DNA of 26,285 nucleotides from a virus (Duplodnaviria > Heunggongvirae > Uroviricota > Caudoviricetes): the IMG/VR virus record IMGVR_UViG_2740892234_000017, positions 1 to 26,285 of that record. The stretch is one strand, 5' to 3'. Of this stretch, positions 13,958 to 22,070 are shown piece after piece (position 1 is the stretch's first letter; the number at the start of each line of letters is the position of its first letter). The translations under genes and the position numbers were made by a program. Under the pieces are notes generated by a model. The model did not search any database. It was not told the origin of the DNA and was given only the letters and a program-made list of their open reading frames with translations.

Positions 13958-14099
13958 ACATCCCGTCATCACGCCCTCACACGCTCACCACCGCACAAAA
14001 CACCCCGCAAACACACCAACGCCCCGGTGCACAATCTAAACGCCGTCACGACGCGCTCAGACGCTGAAAAAATAAAATCAGCACCACCGCCAGCGCGCA

Positions 14100-14118
14100 G
14101 TGCTTTCCCCGCCTCGCC
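14100..14118. other. P2-type cos site (19-nt cohesive-end sequence), internal to the prophage
   Basis: GTGCTTTCCCCGCCTCGCC is the reverse complement of the P2 cohesive end as I recall it (GGCGAGGCGGGGAAAGCAC). It lies about 170 bp beyond the Q stop, as in P2. Confidence 0.75.
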
Positions 14119-14359
14119 CGCCCGCTTCATGGGGCGGTTTTAATGCAAACGCATCAGGAAGGGCAGACCTAGTCACATGTAGAATACGATAGCAATAAAA
14201 AAGTCTAATTAGAATGCAAATTGATGCAACTCTATGCCCTCCAAGAACTCCAAACCTGAAAGATTTATGTAAAACATAGTGTTCGTTTCACCAAAATACA
14301 TATAAACTACATTAAAATAGAAATTTGTCTCACCTATAAGCCATTTAGACAACAGATTA

Positions 14360-15523
14360 ATGAGGTTTGTATCACAAATGACCACAAACGAGATACTTTC
14401 GCAGCTTATCAGTCTTGGACTCAAAGGGGATAAAGTTGCTTTTGTTCGGCAGGCTTCGAAACTCGCGCGTTCCTATGATTCTATGGGGCTGCCTGAGCTT
14501 GCTTCAGCCATTAGAGGCAGTATTCAAGATAAAAACACGTTTAACTTGCAGAAAGTATCACGTAGTACATCACCTATTTTTGAACGTCTTGATACATTAC
14601 CTGTAGATAAAGAAACTAAATTTGATTTAGCAGACGTAACTCAACCGTCTTCTGAAATTCAACTCCCATTGTTGAAAGATAGCACTCTGAAAAAAATTAA
14701 AGAATTTTTGACTTTCACTGAACGAGCTAAAGAATTAAAGGATGCCGGTCTTGGCGTGACATCCTCTATGATTTTATATGGGCCACCAGGTTGTGGTAAA
14801 ACCTTGACATCAAAATATATTGCATCCTGTCTAAATTTACCGCTTCTTACTGCAAGATGTGACTCCTTAGTCTCATCATATCTGGGGTCTACTTCTAAAA
14901 ATATCAGGCAGCTATTTGAGTATGCAAGTAAAGCACCATGTGTTTTATTTCTAGATGAACTAGATTCTCTAGCAAAGGCTAGAGATGATCAGCATGAGTT
15001 AGGTGAACTGAAGAGGGTGGTGGTTTCTTTATTGCAAAATATTGACAATCTACCTGAAGAAACAATATTGATTGCTGCAAGTAATCATGAAAATCTTCTA
15101 GATAGCGCAGTTTGGAGGCGCTTTGAGTATAGAATATCTATTGGATTGCCTGATTTTGAAGTCAGAAAACAACTATTTGAACAATATTCAAACATAAAAG
15201 CCACATATGACGATTTTGTTGATGACCTTGCGGAAATATCCTCAGGGCTAAACTGCTCATTTATAGAACAATGCTGCTTAAGATCTGAGCGACATGCTCT
15301 GGTTTACAATAATAAACAAATCGATACCCGATTTTTAGTCGAGGCTATCTTAGAAGCGAAGGGAGTTACATTTGATGAAGAAGATAATTTACTTATAAAG
15401 ATTGTGACCACTCTCAGAGAATACAATCCCAAAAGATTTACAATACGAAAGATAGCAAAAATACTAGGGCTTTCAAATGCTAAAGTGTCAAGGCTAACTA
15501 AGAACTATAGAGAGATATTATGA
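14360..15523 (+). CDS. AAA+ ATPase, candidate IetA-like component of a two-gene ATPase/protease defence system
   Basis: 387 aa. Walker A GPPGCGKT, Walker B VLFLDELD, sensor-1 AASNH, arginine-finger-like AVWRRF. AT-rich codon usage unlike the P2 backbone. An alternative start is the ATG at 14378. The stop overlaps the protease start (ATGA). Confidence 0.85.
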   Translation: MRFVSQMTTNEILSQLISLGLKGDKVAFVRQASKLARSYDSMGLPELASAIRGSIQDKNTFNLQKVSRSTSPIFERLDTLPVDKETKFDLADVTQPSSEIQLPLLKDSTLKKIKEFLTFTERAKELKDAGLGVTSSMILYGPPGCGKTLTSKYIASCLNLPLLTARCDSLVSSYLGSTSKNIRQLFEYASKAPCVLFLDELDSLAKARDDQHELGELKRVVVSLLQNIDNLPEETILIAASNHENLLDSAVWRRFEYRISIGLPDFEVRKQLFEQYSNIKATYDDFVDDLAEISSGLNCSFIEQCCLRSERHALVYNNKQIDTRFLVEAILEAKGVTFDEEDNLLIKIVTTLREYNPKRFTIRKIAKILGLSNAKVSRLTKNYREIL

Positions 15524-17784
15524 GTAACAAAGAAAGACCAATAAAAATAATTGAGGCGACACCTCAAGATTTTACTGAAAAAACATATAATTTCGGAAAG
15601 AAACAACCTATCCGAACAGTAACAACTAGTCTAAAAAATAGACTCAAACAAGAAGTCGATGACGTTAAAAATTTTTTCCAGAGCTCATTTAAAAAATGGC
15701 CCAATATACCGGCGGTGGCTAGAGTTACTCTTCATGAAAAAGCTCTTGCTAAGTCACATCGCCCATCAAGCCTATTAGGTGATAATACATGTCCCGTAAT
15801 AGGCAGTGATAATTTTGGAGAATTACTTATAAGTGTTACTGAAAAAGGGTTAGCACAACTTCGCAAAAAAATTGAAAATAGCACTAATTCTCATAATGGG
15901 ACAGTACATATTGCTGTAATTGAAAAGATCGAACCTTTTAGTCTTAACCATGATGTTATAGATAAAAATAAATCAGATAGTTTTCTTCTGAAACTCTTTG
16001 ACCATAAAGATAGAACAACTAACCGCAGTATCGACAAAGAATTAATGGAATTTGCAGATGAACTAGGAATACAAAAACCCAAAAAGTATGATATCAGTTC
16101 AGATTTGAGTATATATGAAGTAAAAGGGAATGATAACATCGCCCAACTGGCAAGTTTTATTGGCATACGAAAATTAGAACCTATGCCAACATTTGGTCTT
16201 ACTCATACAGTATCGCAATATATTCCTGCTGAAACTCTAGACCTAGATGATTTTCCCTTACCTCAAGAGGATAAACATTATCCACTACTCGGAATTATAG
16301 ATAGCGGAGTCGATCCCAATAACAACATACTTAGGCCATGGATTTGGGATAGTTTAGATTTAGTAAAAGGAGAACACGACTATTCTCATGGGAACATGGT
16401 TGCAAGTTTAGCAATTAATGGAAGATGGTTGAATAACTATGCTGGTTTTCCTCAATGCCAAGCTGAAATTGTTGATGTTGCAGCCTTTCCCAAAGATGGT
16501 ACGCTCAAATTGCCACAATTAATGAAAGCTATCCGAGAGGCTGTGACCACCTATCCAGAAGTACGTGTATGGAACCTGTCATTAGGTTGTCAATCCCCAT
16601 GTTCTGAAGACAGCTTCTCTGAATTGGGGCATTTTTTAAATGCACTTCATGATGAGCATGATTGTCTTTTCGTCGTAGCATCCGGCAACTACATTTATGA
16701 TCCTCAACGAACCTGGCCTCCTCAAGAATTAGGTGGGCATGACAGAATATCAGCCCCCGCAGATTCTGTTCGTTCATTAACTGTTGGCTCAGTTGCCCAT
16801 TTAGAATCGTCTGACTCTGTGGTCAAAAGATTTGAACCTTCATCTTTTTCTAGAAGAGGTCCCGGCCCAGCCTTTATACCCAAACCAGAGATAAATCACT
16901 TTGGAGGTAATTGTGACAGTAAATTAAACTGTGAACATACCGGAATCATAGCTATTGGCGAGGACAATGCTCTTTGCGAAAGTATTGGCACAAGTTTATC
17001 AGCACCGTTAATCTCAAGTTTAGCGGCATCACTGTGGCATGAACTAGATGTTAATGGTTCTATTTCACCATCGCCTGAACGTATCAAGGCACTATTAATT
17101 CATTCTGCGTTAAAAAACTCACCAGCCAAAACGGAGCATTATGCGTTTAATTATCAAGGATTTGGACGCCCAAGCGATCATATAAATGATATTATTGGTT
17201 GCAATAAAAATGAGATTACATTTCTATTTGAAATAGATACCCGAGAAGGTATTGAATTCAGTAGAACGCCATTTGTAATACCACAGTCATTACGTACTGA
17301 GGATGGAAAATTCACAGGTGAAATTATTATGACACTCGTTTATTCTCCACCGCTTGATTATGACTACCCATCTGAATATTGCCGTTCTAATGTGGATGTG
17401 TCATTCGGGACTTACACTTATGATCCAGTTAACGCTAAATGGATACATAGCGGAAAAATTCCACAAATAAAAGAAAAGAGTGAATTATTTGAAAAGGTAC
17501 TGATAGAAAATGGCTTCAAATGGTCTCCAGTCAAAGTTTATAGAAAACAATTTCCGCAAGGTATAAATGGGGAGCAATGGAGACTTAAACTTGATGTTCA
17601 GAGACGAGCAGAGCAAGAGCCTCTATCTTCACCTCAACGTGCTGTATTGGCTATTACGTTAAGATCTCTTGCCAATTCTACTACAGTCTACAACGAAGCC
17701 GAGGTTGAAATAAATAATCTTGGTTGGAAAGAAACTGATATTGTTGTTCGTGAACAACCAAAAATCAGGATTCGTCAAAAATAA
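15520..17784 (+). CDS. Subtilisin-like serine protease (peptidase S8) with N- and C-terminal extension domains, candidate IetS-like component
   Basis: 754 aa. Catalytic triad motifs in canonical order: Asp (GIIDSGVD), His (HGNMVASLA), Ser (GTSLSAPLISS). Translationally coupled to the upstream ATPase. Confidence 0.85.
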   Translation: MSNKERPIKIIEATPQDFTEKTYNFGKKQPIRTVTTSLKNRLKQEVDDVKNFFQSSFKKWPNIPAVARVTLHEKALAKSHRPSSLLGDNTCPVIGSDNFGELLISVTEKGLAQLRKKIENSTNSHNGTVHIAVIEKIEPFSLNHDVIDKNKSDSFLLKLFDHKDRTTNRSIDKELMEFADELGIQKPKKYDISSDLSIYEVKGNDNIAQLASFIGIRKLEPMPTFGLTHTVSQYIPAETLDLDDFPLPQEDKHYPLLGIIDSGVDPNNNILRPWIWDSLDLVKGEHDYSHGNMVASLAINGRWLNNYAGFPQCQAEIVDVAAFPKDGTLKLPQLMKAIREAVTTYPEVRVWNLSLGCQSPCSEDSFSELGHFLNALHDEHDCLFVVASGNYIYDPQRTWPPQELGGHDRISAPADSVRSLTVGSVAHLESSDSVVKRFEPSSFSRRGPGPAFIPKPEINHFGGNCDSKLNCEHTGIIAIGEDNALCESIGTSLSAPLISSLAASLWHELDVNGSISPSPERIKALLIHSALKNSPAKTEHYAFNYQGFGRPSDHINDIIGCNKNEITFLFEIDTREGIEFSRTPFVIPQSLRTEDGKFTGEIIMTLVYSPPLDYDYPSEYCRSNVDVSFGTYTYDPVNAKWIHSGKIPQIKEKSELFEKVLIENGFKWSPVKVYRKQFPQGINGEQWRLKLDVQRRAEQEPLSSPQRAVLAITLRSLANSTTVYNEAEVEINNLGWKETDIVVREQPKIRIRQK

Positions 17785-17789
17785 GCATT

Positions 17790-17814
17790 ATGGTCACCTT
17801 TTATAGGTGACCAT
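17790..17814. terminator. Perfect hairpin between convergent operons, a candidate bidirectional terminator
   Basis: ATGGTCACC-TTTTATA-GGTGACCAT: a 9-bp perfect stem between the protease stop (17784) and the membrane-protein stop (17818). There is no strong U-tract on either strand. Confidence 0.5.
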
Positions 17815-17817
17815 TTA

Positions 17818-18579
17818 CTACACCTTATTATTTTCAACTATTTTATGAATATCCATATCAAACCAAGAAACTTGCGAAATTTCTTTTAGTGGAAAGATGA
17901 TACTAGTATCAGCATCCTCAAGTTCTCTATATTCATTCACCAAGATTACTTTCAATGAATCCTTATCTCTATACCCAGAGATAATAGGATAGATTGAAAC
18001 ATACTGGTTAGGTCCTTCTTTCTCGTTAGGCTCACCTAATGCGTTAACAATTCCTACATATGTCTTTTTATTTTGCAACGTAATAAGTATTGAACGTCTA
18101 TCAACTAACGAATCAAAAAATATTTCATCCATTGGATTATCATTAATAAGCTCTTGCCTCATCCTTAGCATGACAAGATTCTCATAATCAATATTGGCAG
18201 CCTTTACCCCTTGGATATAATTTATAATTTTAGCTCTATATATAACCAAATATCTAGCACCGGCACTCCATATCCAAGCCAAAAATATCGATCCACATGA
18301 AAGTAAAATCATCCATCCTATGATTCTTTCAGTACCATTATCACTAAGTTTGAGATCTAATTGTTCCCGAACCATCGTGACAGGATGGAAGCTCGGACAT
18401 ATCCATTTTATTAAGTAAGCTATAATCAATGTCCATATAAAACACCACAGACCAAAGGCGGCTGACTTCATATATAACAACTGCCCATCATAACGGTGTA
18501 ATCTATAGAAATGATAAGGATGAGTGGTTAATACAATATAACCACTCACAAGTAATGGAATAATTAATAAAGCAAACAT
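17818..18579 (-). CDS. Hypothetical membrane protein with about three N-terminal transmembrane helices and a soluble C-terminal domain
   Basis: 253 aa. Hydrophobic segments at roughly residues 1-18, 39-57 and 87-103. AT-rich. Translationally coupled to the upstream 78-aa gene. No recognisable catalytic motif. Confidence 0.7.
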   Translation of the reverse strand: MFALLIIPLLVSGYIVLTTHPYHFYRLHRYDGQLLYMKSAAFGLWCFIWTLIIAYLIKWICPSFHPVTMVREQLDLKLSDNGTERIIGWMILLSCGSIFLAWIWSAGARYLVIYRAKIINYIQGVKAANIDYENLVMLRMRQELINDNPMDEIFFDSLVDRRSILITLQNKKTYVGIVNALGEPNEKEGPNQYVSIYPIISGYRDKDSLKVILVNEYRELEDADTSIIFPLKEISQVSWFDMDIHKIVENNKV

Positions 18580-18581
18580 TA

Positions 18582-18818
18582 TTAATTCCCTTTAGCCATT
18601 TTTTCTTCTTGCTTTACCTGCTCAGAAACTATTCTTCTTGCTTTAATTTTCATCAATTTTACTGTATCTGAGCTTGCCAAGTCTTCTTTAGACGTGATAA
18701 TCGCGCCTCGACCTACCACCTCAACAGTGTTTGTTCCAGATGCTTCAAGCCTCCTCGCCAGTTCTCTTTCCTTTTCAATGGCAGCTTTACCTATAATACG
18801 TTCAAATATATTCATCAT
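18582..18818 (-). CDS. Hypothetical small protein (78 aa), first gene of a two-gene operon with the membrane protein
   Basis: Strong ribosome-binding site (GGAGG-TTAA-ATG). Charged, probably cytoplasmic. Function not recognised. Confidence 0.65.
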   Translation of the reverse strand: MMNIFERIIGKAAIEKERELARRLEASGTNTVEVVGRGAIITSKEDLASSDTVKLMKIKARRIVSEQVKQEEKMAKGN

Positions 18819-19126
18819 TTAACCTCCACTTGATTGATGCCAAGATAGTAATCACCTCCTCACAATATCTTACCAACCTAACAATTAACAGAACACTGTG
18901 TATAAGTCCAGTATAGTTTAATTAATAAATTAGGCAAATCTATCAAAATGGTATTTTGTTAAAAATTCAGCTAACTCTGAGGTTGGTAAAACAGTCCACC
19001 AGATGTATCGCTAAAGCACTTAGAAACCACTATAACCATCCTAAGTGTACCAGTCAGTCTGTTTGTCTAATCGCATCACTATGCTCGTTATTCTATCCCC
19101 CGCCAATCCTGAGCTGGCTGCGTTCT

Positions 19127-19345
19127 CTATCGTCTGCGTGGTGGCGATGCAGCGCTGGACTGACCGATATAGCTAAGCCATACGTAATTATCCCGGACTA
19201 TTTCGGCACACCCGACTAGCTCATCGGGCGTCAGATTTTCGTTGACCATAATCTGCTGTAGACGGTGAACAATGGCCATCAGCTTGATATTTTTAGTTTT
19301 ATGGTGCGGTATCTCGCCTGGTATTCTGTGCATTATCCAAGCCAC
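19127..19345 (-). CDS. Small hypothetical ORF at the junction of the P2 backbone and the AT-rich cargo; may be a remnant of a displaced gene
   Basis: 72-aa ORF with backbone-like GC content. No recognisable motif. Weakly supported. Confidence 0.25.
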   Translation of the reverse strand: MAWIMHRIPGEIPHHKTKNIKLMAIVHRLQQIMVNENLTPDELVGCAEIVRDNYVWLSYIGQSSAASPPRRR

Positions 19346-19788
19346 CCGTTTTGCGGTGCACGCTCCATCTGTTCATCTGAATAGTTCCATGCTCCATCCG
19401 TGGCAACCATTGCCCCGCCAGACATCCCCGTCTCTGGTTCATACATAACAGCAAGGCCGAGCTGATGCATAATTTCATGATTAATTCTGAATACCAGACC
19501 ACGCTCACTAAGTTCTTTCCAGTTCACAATCTCATATGCGCCTGTATTAAGCAGCTCAATACTTAGCAAGACATAATCTTCCAGCCAATCTGACAGGTCA
19601 GTAACATCTGTTATCCGGGCTTCAACCTTTCGCCCCGTATACACACCCTGCACCCATTCATGCAAAATCAACGTGTCCCCGTGCTCATAATTACGGTCAT
19701 TTTTCCTAAACTCTGCGCGTTTCTTTCCTTCCAGCACAAGGTCGAAATATTTTGCGTGCAGCTTTACCTCGTGAATTTTTGCCATCAT
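19333..19788 (-). CDS. Hypothetical protein with an N-terminal ASCH-like / DUF3850-type domain, downstream of A
   Basis: Start set at the ATG overlapping the A stop (ATGATGG). MAKIHEVKLHAKYFDLVLEGKKRAEFRKNDRNYEHGDTLILHEW resembles the DUF3850/ASCH pattern as I recall it. 151 aa. Confidence 0.6.
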   Translation of the reverse strand: MMAKIHEVKLHAKYFDLVLEGKKRAEFRKNDRNYEHGDTLILHEWVQGVYTGRKVEARITDVTDLSDWLEDYVLLSIELLNTGAYEIVNWKELSERGLVFRINHEIMHQLGLAVMYEPETGMSGGAMVATDGAWNYSDEQMERAPQNGWLG

Positions 19789-22070
19789 GTCCACTCCATT
19801 ACTGTTGAGAATCCCGGCCACTCATCAGCGACCGGATACGTGAATTTTTTCCCGTCATAATTTACGGTTGCCCCACGCGCCAGCGCCTCAATCTCCCATC
19901 GCTGCGGCCTGATACCGTTCTGAGCAAGGTCAACGCGGATACGGGTAATTTGCGTTCGTTCCGACCGGGTCAGTCTGGCCGATGGCGCTATTTCATGTGG
20001 TTTTAACAGGCTTCCGTTTCTCTGCTGACGATTTGGTGTTCTCAGTCCGTGTTTTAATGCACCTCTGAGCGCCCTCACGACCTCTGGCTCATTCCATTCG
20101 ATAACACCGTCATCAACCAGATTAAGCACGGCTGCGGCATGTTCAGAAGGTGTGGGAACCGGTAACGAAGTATCACCACCGGAGAGCTTTCCACAGTTAT
20201 TGACAGGACTCCGAGGCGCGGCGATGCCGCTTTTTAAAGTCAAAGGCTCAACGACCGGAACTTTCGGCACGATGCGCCAGTCCGTCGTTCTGGTGATATG
20301 AATATGACGCGCGCCGAGATGCGGCGCGTAAATGCCGACCACTCTCTCGACTTCTTCCTCGTACTCGTTAACTTCATCCGACGGGCTACGGGCGACCCTG
20401 ACAGTCTGACAATCGCGCGGGACATTTGCCCCGCCCTGCGCGCTGATATACAACGCAAAATCGCCACTGTCTGCGGCGGCGCGTGCAGCCTCCACGCGTT
20501 CGTCAAATTCATCAGCAATGCTGACGCCGCGAGGCAATTTACGTAGCTCACGGTAAGCTCCCATTGTCGGCAGGCCAACCGTTTTAAATTGCGGGATGCG
20601 CCACGTTGACGCCCATGCGGTAACAGCCGCCGCAGTATCTTTCAGCGGTCTGCCGGTATCGTTATCGAGCTGACCATCCAGTGCATAGCCGTCGATATTT
20701 TTTGAAATGTATTTCGCGATATATCCCGCAGCACCGCCCCGGTTAAGGTGTTTTGCCTGAAAACGGTTTCGCGCGGCTCCTCTTTCGTCGCCATCCTCTT
20801 TGAGCGCATAGCGACGCATGATTTCGATAATCTGGTTACGCTGGCGTGGATTACAAAAAAGCATCATATGCCAGTGCGGCGTTCCGTCGTGGTGTGGCTC
20901 GACGACTCGCAAACCGTAGACCTGTAAATCATTATCCTTGAATGCCGTGCGCATCAGGCTCCAGATACGGCAGAGATAACGCTGCGCATCCTTTGGATTA
21001 AATGCCTCATCATTCCAGCCGTGATTAAGCTGGACGGTTTTATTTTCGCCTTTTCCAACCTGACGTGTCGGGTGATACTTTGACGGCGCGGTAAGCGTGA
21101 TAAACATCCCCACATCACCCTCTGAGGCGGCGTAACGCTCAATACCGGCAATGGTGTTCATCAGCTCCATCCGGCGAATTTCAGGATTAGAAATACTGCC
21201 CATCACCTTACTGATAAGGTCGATGCGCTCGCCGGTTTCCCTGTTTTCAAGGTCACACGATTTAAGAAATTCCAGATTTGCCTGGCGGCGCGCACGCACA
21301 TCACGAATGGCATGTTTACTGGCATAAGGTGAACGGTCTTTATTGACCTCCCCGACAGCAATCAGTAACGCCTCATGCCAGCGCATACGCTGGCCTTTAA
21401 GCTGACTAATCCACCACTCATCGTTAAACAGGCGGGCAATGGCAGAATATGCCTGCCTCGTGGTCATCTGTCCTTTACGGTATTTTTTCCAGTAGAGAGG
21501 GGAAATATTGAAAGCACGTGCAGCGCCAGCAACATGACCATACAGATGCGCCTGCGCCTCATCTGTAAACAGCGATTCTTTCTCGCCATGTGCATCAACC
21601 CATGCATCGCAAAGTTCCTCATACATCATGAAAAGCTGCGATGAGATACGGGCGGCAAACTTTTTCAGCTCCTTGTCATTCATCCCCGGCAGACGCGCAT
21701 AATGGTCACGCTCTGCCAGAAACAGCAACGACGCGTCGGTGTTCATTTCATGGCGCTGATTCACGCGCTCAATACGCGGCCATAAACGGCGCTGAAAAGT
21801 GGATGTGAGGAAATAAAACCCGTGCACCGGGCTTTTATTGCGCCGGATGTAGTCATAGCGTGAAGTAAACAGCGAGCGCAAAAAGTAAGGCAGGCGATTA
21901 ATCGTGGATAAAACACCTTGCACCTGACGCATCTCGTCACGTGTAAGGGGTCTTTCGCGCCCGACGGCCTCGCGTGGCGCGTTCCATGCATAAGCACCGG
22001 TAAACGTCTCACCGGTGCCTGCGGCAAATGCTGACGGAGGGACAAAACGCCCGGAGGCTTTAACGGCCAT
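19785..22070 (-). CDS. A: Replication initiation protein A (rolling-circle initiator)
   Basis: Start trimmed to MAVKASGRFVPPSAF, giving 761 aa as in P2 gpA. Contains the VVEPHHDGTPHWHMMLF and GYIAKYISKN regions typical of P2 A-type initiators. Confidence 0.92.
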   Translation of the reverse strand: MAVKASGRFVPPSAFAAGTGETFTGAYAWNAPREAVGRERPLTRDEMRQVQGVLSTINRLPYFLRSLFTSRYDYIRRNKSPVHGFYFLTSTFQRRLWPRIERVNQRHEMNTDASLLFLAERDHYARLPGMNDKELKKFAARISSQLFMMYEELCDAWVDAHGEKESLFTDEAQAHLYGHVAGAARAFNISPLYWKKYRKGQMTTRQAYSAIARLFNDEWWISQLKGQRMRWHEALLIAVGEVNKDRSPYASKHAIRDVRARRQANLEFLKSCDLENRETGERIDLISKVMGSISNPEIRRMELMNTIAGIERYAASEGDVGMFITLTAPSKYHPTRQVGKGENKTVQLNHGWNDEAFNPKDAQRYLCRIWSLMRTAFKDNDLQVYGLRVVEPHHDGTPHWHMMLFCNPRQRNQIIEIMRRYALKEDGDERGAARNRFQAKHLNRGGAAGYIAKYISKNIDGYALDGQLDNDTGRPLKDTAAAVTAWASTWRIPQFKTVGLPTMGAYRELRKLPRGVSIADEFDERVEAARAAADSGDFALYISAQGGANVPRDCQTVRVARSPSDEVNEYEEEVERVVGIYAPHLGARHIHITRTTDWRIVPKVPVVEPLTLKSGIAAPRSPVNNCGKLSGGDTSLPVPTPSEHAAAVLNLVDDGVIEWNEPEVVRALRGALKHGLRTPNRQQRNGSLLKPHEIAPSARLTRSERTQITRIRVDLAQNGIRPQRWEIEALARGATVNYDGKKFTYPVADEWPGFSTVMEWT

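What the first reader, a model, noticed from the sequence alone, without database searches (positions are those of the whole stretch)
17818..18818. Convergent two-gene operon of a 78-aa protein and a 253-aa membrane protein with unrecognised function
A small charged protein with a strong ribosome-binding site is translationally coupled to a protein with about three N-terminal transmembrane helices and a roughly 150-aa soluble C-terminal domain. I recognise no motif in either. A small cytoplasmic partner plus a membrane effector, AT-rich and sitting in a defence hotspot next to another candidate system, fits the pattern of abortive-infection or toxin-antitoxin-like modules. It could be an uncharacterised defence module or an accessory part of the neighbouring ATPase-protease system.
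Basis: inference. Interest (0 to 1): 0.7.

Follow-up and report, generated by a model that had tools for sequence, protein, structure and literature searches.

The report
Prophage membrane Sm-like protein pair
A real, tightly conserved but uncharacterised two-gene unit carried by prophages and other mobile DNA: a tiny cytoplasmic protein plus an inner-membrane protein with an Sm/Hfq-like domain, probably a phage-exclusion device, and in this lineage always inherited with the IetAS defence system.

Summary
Two coupled genes on the minus strand, 78 aa (18582-18818) and 253 aa (17818-18579), lie in the AT-rich defence hotspot of a P2-like E. coli prophage. They converge on IetA/IetS (14360-17784), a known defence system.

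Neither protein matches Pfam, PADLOC or NCBIfam. Both belong to PHROGs of unknown function.

The pair is cargo of temperate phages (P2 hotspot, integrase-attP slot), integrative islands and IncC plasmids. It usually occurs without IetAS, so it is an autonomous module.

In the clade at or above 55% identity, all four genes co-diverge as one cassette across at least four element types. A second four-gene cassette exists at 27-34% identity.

Best reading (about 0.45): a membrane-acting phage-exclusion module controlled by its small partner. Main rival (about 0.25): an integral part of an extended IetAS variant. No function has been tested, and I found no publication on it.

The parts
18582..18818 (-). 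Gene for the 78-aa (77 aa from the second ATG) cytoplasmic partner. The model is helix, beta-hairpin, short helix, long helix, with invariant G36-R37-G38 at the hairpin turn.
   Evidence: ORF. phrog_37504 E 2.8e-53, no Pfam, PADLOC or NCBIfam match. Family of at least 342 proteins, all hypothetical. Invariant GRG. AF2 model with pLDDT 75. No hydrophobic segment.
17818..18579 (-). Gene for the 253-aa inner-membrane protein: TM1 1-22, conserved cytoplasmic loop RLHRYDGQLLYxK, TM2 about 39-60, variable periplasmic loop 61-85, TM3 85-108, helical linker 109-160, and cytoplasmic Sm/Hfq-like beta-barrel 164-240.
18823..18827 (-). Shine-Dalgarno GGAGG of the small gene
   Evidence: Minus-strand sequence caagtGGAGGttaaATGATG.
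18910..18937 (-). Promoter-like site TTGCCT-16-TATACT upstream of the operon. This is a consensus match only.
   Evidence: The number of such sites in the region does not exceed the shuffled expectation, so this is a candidate only.
17790..17814 (.). 10-bp inverted repeat (ATGGTCACCT..AGGTGACCAT) between the two convergent stop codons. It is a probable bidirectional terminator shared with IetS.
14360..15523 (+). IetA, an AAA+ ATPase with a weak C-terminal HTH match. It is the known partner of IetS and is co-inherited with the pair in this clade.
   Evidence: PADLOC IetA 9e-132 and Pfam AAA 1e-31. Co-divergence.
15520..17784 (+). IetS, an S8 subtilase. It overlaps IetA by 4 nt, converges on the pair, and is co-inherited with the pair in this clade.
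   Evidence: PADLOC IetS 1e-273 and Pfam Peptidase_S8. Linkage in 12 of 12 loci with IetS at or above 55% identity.

Best explanation
The two genes form a self-contained, conserved module carried by mobile elements. Translational coupling makes the small cytoplasmic protein together with the membrane protein (shown: gene layout; inferred: coupling). The membrane protein has three transmembrane helices and places an Sm/Hfq-like barrel and a highly conserved loop on the cytoplasmic face. A short, highly variable loop faces the periplasm (shown by model, topology and conservation).

By analogy with Sm/Hfq rings and WYL sensor barrels, I infer that the barrel drives oligomerisation and/or senses a nucleic-acid-type ligand. 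I infer that the small partner docks through its invariant GRG hairpin as an inhibitor or sensor. On phage infection the membrane part would then act at the inner membrane, by ion leak or depolarisation (abortive infection) or by blocking genome entry (superinfection exclusion).

The module works on its own in most lineages. In the lineage of this window it has become a fixed cassette with IetAS, with which it may cooperate.
For: - The pair is conserved, with the same order and a junction of -1 to 24 nt, across Proteobacteria and Turneriella.
- The membrane family is large and uniform, 2,599 clusters of mostly 240-340 aa.
- Invariant residues lie in the cytoplasmic loop and the barrel. The periplasmic loop varies from about 25 to about 90 residues.
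- It is phage and mobile-element cargo. It sits in the P2 hotspot in E. coli, Yersinia and Klebsiella phage ST15-OXA48phi14.1. It lies between int and attP in the induced phage phiES15 and next to int in E. coli and Klebsiella lambdoid prophages. It is also found in a Rac-like prophage, AlpA or integrase islands and IncC plasmids.
- Integrase is the top neighbouring Pfam family.
- Defence genes lie nearby: MmeI-type RM, CBASS, MADS, type IIG RM and SEFIR.
- More than 50 loci lack IetAS.
- Per Rousset et al. 2022 (PMC9122126), transmembrane proteins in known anti-phage systems are believed to be suicide effectors.
Against: - There is no experimental evidence of any kind, and no similarity to any PADLOC model.
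- Oligomerisation, ligand binding and binding of the partner are all inferred. No multimer model could be run.
- Sm sequence motifs are not detected by Pfam.
- In the Pseudomonas luteola/duriflava/asuensis/rhizoryzae group the pair sits in one syntenic chromosomal site without mobile-element marks. This suggests long vertical retention and possibly a physiological role.
- The strict co-inheritance with IetAS in this clade could mean that here it does not act alone.
Confidence: 0.45

Rival explanations
1. In this lineage the pair is an integral component of a four-gene IetAS variant, comparable to the published three-gene ietHAS. The membrane protein or its small partner would be a substrate, regulator or second effector of the IetS protease, and the pair would have little activity without IetAS.
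For: - All four proteins diverge in parallel relative to the window (small/membrane/IetS/IetA % identity): 88/88/90/84, 72/76/78/65, 63/76/77/69, 50/60/63/55, 54/55/59/57 and 53/56/60/56.
- Over the same span the cassette moved between P2-like phages, a Rac-like lambdoid prophage, integrase islands and a site next to cpxAR.
- 12 of 12 evaluable loci with IetS at or above 55% identity carry the pair, and every pair in that clade has IetAS.
- A second cassette with the same convergent layout exists at IetS 34% and membrane protein 27% identity (L196).
- IetAS is known to recruit essential accessory genes such as ietH (PMC13069673).
Against: - The two operons are convergent and separately transcribed.
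- No pair was found at 14 evaluable IetS loci of 40-55% identity, and only 1 at 49 loci below 40%.
- IetAS-only entries occur at P2 hotspots in Rousset Table S5, and PADLOC defines IetAS as two genes.
- Wu et al. list ietAS from ECOR52 among the systems cloned and tested; the gene content of that construct was not checked.
- More than 50 family loci have no IetAS within 8 kb.
- Co-inheritance can also arise if two independent systems are swapped as one block at recombination hotspots.
Confidence: 0.25
2. It is a toxin-antitoxin or addiction module (membrane toxin, small protein antitoxin) that stabilises the mobile element and has no role against phages.
For: - A small gene precedes and is coupled to a larger gene, as in type II TA modules.
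- In decaying endosymbiont genomes (Arsenophonus, Sodalis) the membrane gene is broken while the small gene stays intact.
- No full-length membrane gene lacks an upstream small ORF.
- It is present on conjugative IncC plasmids.
Against: - The small protein shows no DNA-binding domain.
- The module is rare on plasmids, 31 of 72,556 records, where addiction modules are usually common.
- It occupies phage slots typical of lysogen-expressed exclusion genes.
- TA and abortive-infection functions are not mutually exclusive.
- No RNA antitoxin or repeat array was found.
Confidence: 0.12
3. It has a physiological function unrelated to conflict, for example a membrane-tethered Sm/Hfq-like RNA- or ligand-binding protein involved in envelope or stress physiology. 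Phages would carry it as a lysogenic-conversion gene.
For: - It occupies a syntenic chromosomal position in several Pseudomonas species between nitrate-regulation-type genes and an MFS transporter, in 24 of 24 contigs read for P0144.
- The Sm fold is classically RNA-binding.
- Conserved K, Y and R residues lie in the barrel.
Against: - There is no conserved functional neighbour across the 29 non-redundant loci examined.
- In Enterobacterales the distribution is patchy and mobile: 12 and 17 of 5,426 complete E. coli genomes for the two alleles.
- It co-localises with defence genes and integrases.
Confidence: 0.15

Closest known systems
RexAB of phage lambda, and prophage-encoded Abi or exclusion pairs with a membrane effector in general
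   Same: A two-gene unit on a prophage, with one cytoplasmic and one polytopic inner-membrane protein. It sits at positions where lysogen-expressed cargo is found.
   Different: There is no sequence match to any PADLOC model. The size ratio is reversed, with a tiny partner and a larger membrane protein. The membrane protein carries an Sm-like cytoplasmic barrel. Function is untested.
IetAS (IetA AAA+ ATPase and IetS S8 protease) and its variant ietHAS
   Same: It is physically adjacent and strictly co-inherited with the pair in this clade. There is precedent for IetAS acquiring essential accessory genes (PMC13069673).
   Different: The pair is not part of the defined system. It is transcribed convergently and is absent from almost all more distant IetAS loci, and most family members occur without IetAS.
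Sm/LSm/Hfq proteins and WYL sensor domains
   Different: There is no Pfam LSM, Hfq or WYL match. The domain is fused to three transmembrane helices. Ring formation and ligand binding are not shown.
CBASS and Pycsar membrane effectors of the 'TM helices plus small beta-barrel' type (Cap15-like)
   Same: The architecture follows the same logic: N-terminal TM helices and a small C-terminal cytoplasmic barrel that could act as a switch.
   Different: There is no homology. No cyclase is present in the window or in most loci. The partner is a 60-90-aa protein, not a nucleotide signal generator.
Type II toxin-antitoxin modules
   Same: A small upstream gene is tightly coupled to a larger downstream gene. 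In decaying genomes the small gene is kept while the large one is lost.
   Different: There is no recognisable DNA-binding antitoxin fold and no known toxin family. Toxicity is untested.

Membership tests
IetAS defence system | Operon of an IetA AAA+ ATPase and an IetS S8 peptidase | tested here: met
   The neighbouring genes at 14360-17784 match PADLOC IetA at 9e-132 and IetS at 1e-273 over the full length. This applies to the neighbours, not to the pair.
IetAS defence system | The 78-aa and 253-aa proteins are recognised components of the system | tested here: not met
   No PADLOC model matches either protein at E <= 0.1. IetS loci at or below 44% identity lack the pair in 62 of 63 evaluable cases.
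IetAS defence system (extended variant) | Consistent co-inheritance of the extra genes with IetAS | tested here: met
   Within the clade at or above 55% identity, 12 of 12 IetS-centred loci and all pair-centred loci are linked, and the four proteins diverge in parallel. One further cassette exists at 27-34% identity. Functional dependence was not tested.
Sm/LSm/Hfq fold | N-terminal helix plus five-stranded bent antiparallel sheet | tested here: met
Sm/LSm/Hfq fold | Sm1/Sm2 sequence motifs detectable by family profiles | tested here: not met
   No Pfam family matches at E <= 0.1. No PDB sequence relative was found.
Sm/LSm/Hfq fold | Hexameric or heptameric ring and RNA binding | not testable with these tools
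   Only single-chain prediction was available.
MscS-type channels (TM helices plus Sm-like beta domain) | Homology to the MS_channel pore helix and beta domain | tested here: not met
Known anti-phage systems in PADLOC-DB 2.0 (RexAB, Kiwa, Zorya, CBASS effectors, the PD-, PDC- and other candidate models in the library) | Profile match to any component | tested here: not met
   0 families for both proteins at E <= 0.1.
Type II toxin-antitoxin module | Small upstream gene coupled to a larger downstream gene | tested here: met
   2-nt spacer in the window. Gaps of -1 to 24 nt in about 45 loci.
Type II toxin-antitoxin module | Antitoxin with a DNA-binding fold (RHH, HTH or AbrB) | tested here: not met
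   No Pfam match. The weak KH-I hits in 7 of 45 members (best E 0.004) do not fit the model, which is helix, hairpin, helix, helix.
Type II toxin-antitoxin module | Toxicity of the large protein that is neutralised by the small one | not testable with these tools
   This needs expression experiments.

The most novel reading that the evidence does not exclude
The four genes form one protease-gated membrane-effector system. On phage sensing, the IetA-controlled S8 protease IetS would cleave the 78-aa inhibitor or the linker of the 253-aa protein. This would release an Sm-like ring that opens or assembles a pore from its transmembrane helices. The logic parallels protease-activated bacterial gasdermins but uses an unrelated, pre-inserted membrane protein. 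The stand-alone pairs elsewhere would be the ancestral, self-triggered form.
Probability: 0.12. Interest if true: 0.85.

Novelty: new variant of a known kind. Interest (0 to 1): 0.6.

Why it matters
If the pair excludes phages, it would define a new and large defence family: about 2,600 clusters at 50% identity, with no Pfam or PADLOC model. Its effector architecture, three transmembrane helices plus an Sm/Hfq-like barrel with a mini-partner, did not come up in the defence papers I searched.

The strict co-evolution with IetAS offers a concrete handle on two open points. [quoted passage not shown] The other is whether adjacent systems in prophage hotspots are independent or functionally wired.

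The family also adds a membrane-anchored branch to the Sm-like fold.

Tried and rejected
- **KH domain for the small protein.** Weak Pfam KH-I hits in 7 of 45 members. Rejected because the motif is G-x-G rather than GxxG and the AF2 model is helix, hairpin, helix, helix.
- **AbrB/SpoVT-like antitoxin.** The GR..I.P-like motif recalled this from memory. No Pfam match in any member.
- **TfoX/Sxy.** One source gives this name to the 82-aa E. coli homologue. No profile supports it.
- **NCBIfam STM3941.** E 0.018, 15 bits against a cut-off of 40. Treated as noise.
- **RNA antitoxin or type III repeat array.** No Rfam match above noise and no tandem array.
- **Natural fusion of the small and large proteins.** The longer family members only have a longer TM2-TM3 loop.
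- **Solved-structure sequence relatives.** None found.
- **BFVD viral fold search.** Only weak matches (best E 3.3e-3), a few of them to proteins annotated as Sm-like.
- **Literature.** No paper holds WP_000457799, WP_000981007 or the PHROG ids. They are not in the supplements of the DefensePredictor paper. Brenes and Laub 2025 is not held. The afdb50 fold library was unavailable.

Full report
**1. The observation**

The window is a P2-like prophage of E. coli. It runs through tail, lysis, capsid, terminase and portal genes, then an AT-rich island, then DUF3850, the replication gene gpA, cox/C and the integrase, and ends at yegR.

- The small gene has GGAGG 4 nt before its first ATG and 7 nt before its second.
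- Its TAA stop is followed by two bases and then the ATG of the large gene.
- A promoter-like site lies at 18937-18910. It is only a consensus match.
- A 10-bp inverted repeat at 17790-17814 lies between this operon's stop and the stop of the converging gene.
- No Rfam family or tandem array is present in 17600-19400.

The converging genes are IetA (14360-15523) and IetS (15520-17784). Both give full-length PADLOC matches, 9e-132 and 1e-273. They form a known two-gene defence system.

**2. What the proteins are**

Neither protein matches Pfam, PADLOC or NCBIfam. Both fall into PHROGs of unknown function, phrog_3630 and phrog_37504.

*The 253-aa protein.* It has three hydrophobic segments: 1-22, about 39-60 and 85-108. 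The charge distribution is +3/-1 in loop 1, +3/-4 in loop 2 and +4/0 just after TM3. This gives an N-out/C-in topology, so loop 1 and the C-terminal 145 residues are cytoplasmic.

An AlphaFold2 model built on 41 homologues (pLDDT 79) shows the three long helices, two linker helices and a helix-plus-bent-sheet domain at 149-239. That domain matches Sm, LSm and Hfq proteins:
- Foldseek against PDB gives best E 2.5e-3, with TM-scores normalised to the target of 0.6-0.7.
- MscS is not among the top matches.

The invariant residues cluster in four places:
- TM1 (P8, S12, G13);
- the cytoplasmic loop RLHRYDGQLLYxK;
- the barrel (K172, Y174, G176, P184, E186, S195, P198, S201, G202, R204);
- S238-W239-F240.

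The periplasmic TM2-TM3 loop is the variable part. It has about 25 residues here and about 90 in longer relatives.

*The 78-aa protein.* It has no hydrophobic segment. Its model (pLDDT 75) is a helix, a beta-hairpin at 33-41, a short helix and a long C-terminal helix. The only invariant residues in 45 diverse homologues are G36-R37-G38, at the hairpin turn of the VVGRG motif.

**3. The pair is a conserved module**

A profile search of 1.84 billion representative proteins found 2,599 clusters at 50% identity with E <= 1e-3, and 1,272 with E <= 1e-10. Nearly all of the best 150 listed are 240-340 aa and match over the full length.

A scan of one genome per species returned 57 loci. They come from Enterobacterales, Pseudomonas, Shewanella, Legionella, Alcanivorax, beta- and alpha-proteobacteria and Turneriella. 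Acidobacteria and Flavobacterium give matches to the C-terminal domain only.

In nearly all full-length loci a 59-94-aa ORF lies directly upstream on the same strand, with a gap of -1 to 24 nt. These ORFs are homologous to each other, and their family has at least 342 members. No full-length membrane gene lacks an upstream small ORF. In decaying Arsenophonus and Sodalis genomes the membrane gene is broken while the small gene is intact.

**4. Where it lives**
- The exact cassette is in 12 of 5,426 complete E. coli genomes; in the one inspected (L001) it lies at the P2 hotspot.
- A 47%-identical allele, found in 17 complete E. coli genomes, sits right after the integrase at the end of lambdoid prophages. 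The Klebsiella version is placed similarly.
- In the induced Cronobacter phage phiES15 the pair lies between int and attP.
- A very divergent pair occupies the same P2 hotspot in Klebsiella phage ST15-OXA48phi14.1, next to a SEFIR protein.
- Other copies are in AlpA or integrase islands. One lies in a Pseudoalteromonas islet with an MmeI-type RM system, an integrase and an HD protein. Others are on IncC plasmids.
- Among 274 neighbouring proteins from 29 non-redundant loci, the commonest Pfam family is phage integrase (9 proteins). No other gene is consistently linked.
- PADLOC finds IetAS, CBASS cyclase with TRIP13, MADS, type IIG RM and others among these neighbours.
- As a counter-example, the pair occupies one syntenic chromosomal site without mobile-element marks in Pseudomonas luteola, duriflava, asuensis and rhizoryzae.

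**5. Relation to IetAS**

More than 50 family loci have no IetAS within 8 kb. The module is therefore autonomous.

In the clade at or above 55% identity to the window protein, every locus has the same convergent four-gene layout. It appears in these contexts:
- P2-like phages of E. coli, Enterobacter, Citrobacter, Scandinavium and Yersinia;
- a Rac-like lambdoid prophage of E. coli;
- integrase islands of Salmonella, Citrobacter and Providencia;
- a site next to cpxAR in Pectobacterium.

The four proteins diverge in parallel relative to the window:

| Locus | Small | Membrane | IetS | IetA |
|---|---|---|---|---|
| L002 (Enterobacter, P2-like) | 88% | 88% | 90% | 84% |
| L088 (Pectobacterium) | 72% | 76% | 78% | 65% |
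| L090 (Providencia) | 63% | 76% | 77% | 69% |
| L092 (Yersinia, P2-like) | 50% | 60% | 63% | 55% |
| L005 (Scandinavium) | 54% | 55% | 59% | 57% |
| L094 (E. coli, Rac-like prophage) | 53% | 56% | 60% | 56% |

In L005 the P2 backbone gene gpA stays at 79% identity, so the cassette has been swapped independently of the backbone.

Starting from IetS gives the same picture:

| IetS identity to the window | Evaluable loci | Loci with the pair |
|---|---|---|
| 55% or more | 12 | 12 |
| 40-55% | 14 | 0 |
| below 40% | 49 | 1 |

Some of these loci are duplicates of the same contig.

The single exception is L196, a viral contig. It carries IetA, IetS (34% identity), a 294-aa family member (27% identity over residues 4-220) and a 69-aa upstream ORF, all in the same layout. 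The 69-aa ORF shows no BLAST similarity to the 78-aa protein.

The association is therefore either ancient with many losses or has arisen twice. Either way it argues for more than chance adjacency, although block transfer of two independent systems is not excluded.

From the literature:
- IetAS is described as a TA-like pair with the protease as toxin. Its anti-phage mechanism is unknown, and a variant with an essential extra helicase (ietHAS) exists (PMC13069673).
- Wu et al. list ietAS from ECOR52 among the systems cloned and tested. I did not check what that construct contains.
- Rousset et al. 2022 list this very cassette in a supplementary table. The entry reads AAA/HTH_50 + DUF3850/ASCH + three hypotheticals + Peptidase_S8, and includes WP_000457800 and WP_000066157. 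I found no sign that it was tested. IetAS-only entries also appear in that table.

**6. Mechanism**

*Shown:* the gene layout, the fold, the topology, the conservation pattern, the mobility and the linkage to IetAS.

*Inferred:* the cytoplasmic Sm-like barrel oligomerises and/or senses a ligand, the small partner regulates it through the GRG hairpin, and the output is an inner-membrane effect that excludes phages. The variable periplasmic loop fits a surface that meets changing phage components, but this is speculative.

I give the phage-exclusion reading 0.45. The rivals are:
- an integral part of an IetAS variant, 0.25;
- a pure addiction module, 0.12;
- a physiological function unrelated to conflict, 0.15.

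**7. Novelty**

I found no publication, model or name for either protein. The kind of system, a mobile two-gene unit with a membrane effector, is familiar. The components and the hard-wired IetAS cassette did not appear in any source I could search. I therefore rate it as a new variant of a known kind, with interest 0.6.

Noticed in passing
window 14360-17784: The 'candidate ATPase-protease system' is the known IetAS. IetA and IetS overlap by 4 nt, and IetA has weak C-terminal HTH matches (Pfam HTH_28 and HTH_24, E about 0.02-0.03).
   Followed up: yes
window 19127-19345 and 19333-19821: Between gpA and the pair lie a DUF3850/ASCH-type gene and an ORF of about 68-72 aa, annotated as hypothetical in L001. 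Rousset's table lists DUF3850/ASCH in many P2 hotspot entries. Its role was not examined.
   Followed up: no
L196:2392-6779 (IMGVR_UViG_2937525446_000001): A deeply diverged IetA-IetS cassette (IetS 34% identity) is followed by a convergent 294-aa family member (27% identity) and a 69-aa ORF. The four-gene layout is the same as in the window.
   Followed up: partly
L097:3283-5992 (Klebsiella phage ST15-OXA48phi14.1): At the same P2 hotspot a very divergent pair (72 aa plus 280 aa, 21.5% identity, overlapping ATGA) is followed by a 69-aa ORF and a SEFIR-domain protein. This may be another composite cassette.
   Followed up: no
L016, L019, L043, L073-L077 (Pseudomonas luteola/oryzihabitans group): The pair sits in one syntenic chromosomal site, with an ANTAR response regulator and a GGDEF protein upstream and an MFS transporter downstream. 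No integrase is nearby. It appears vertically inherited.
   Followed up: partly
L087:1570-6801 (Pseudoalteromonas sp. CR1): Here the pair is preceded by an integrase, a 670-aa double-AAA ATPase and an SDH-type serine protease. This is a second, unrelated ATPase-plus-protease neighbour and may be coincidence.
   Followed up: no
L067-L072:9285-9962; L082-L086:6886-7344; L099:777-1271: In the Klebsiella, Serratia and Pseudomonas-phage subfamilies an unannotated ORF of 150-225 aa follows the membrane gene on the same strand. It could be a third component in those lineages.
   Followed up: no
L004, L006, L039, L042, L050, L051, L055 (Arsenophonus, Sodalis, Phlomobacter): Endosymbiont copies have frameshifted membrane genes. 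In L004, L006 and L039 the small gene is still intact.
   Followed up: partly
L202:2872-5789 (IncC plasmid pSTY1-2010K-1587): Salmonella IncC conjugative plasmids carry a 33%-identical pair directly after a 547-aa AAA family ATPase and next to a mer operon.
   Followed up: no
window 14000-19100: The whole hotspot insert is an AT-rich island (GC 0.34-0.41) in a prophage of 0.52-0.60 GC. This is consistent with cargo acquired from elsewhere.
   Followed up: yes
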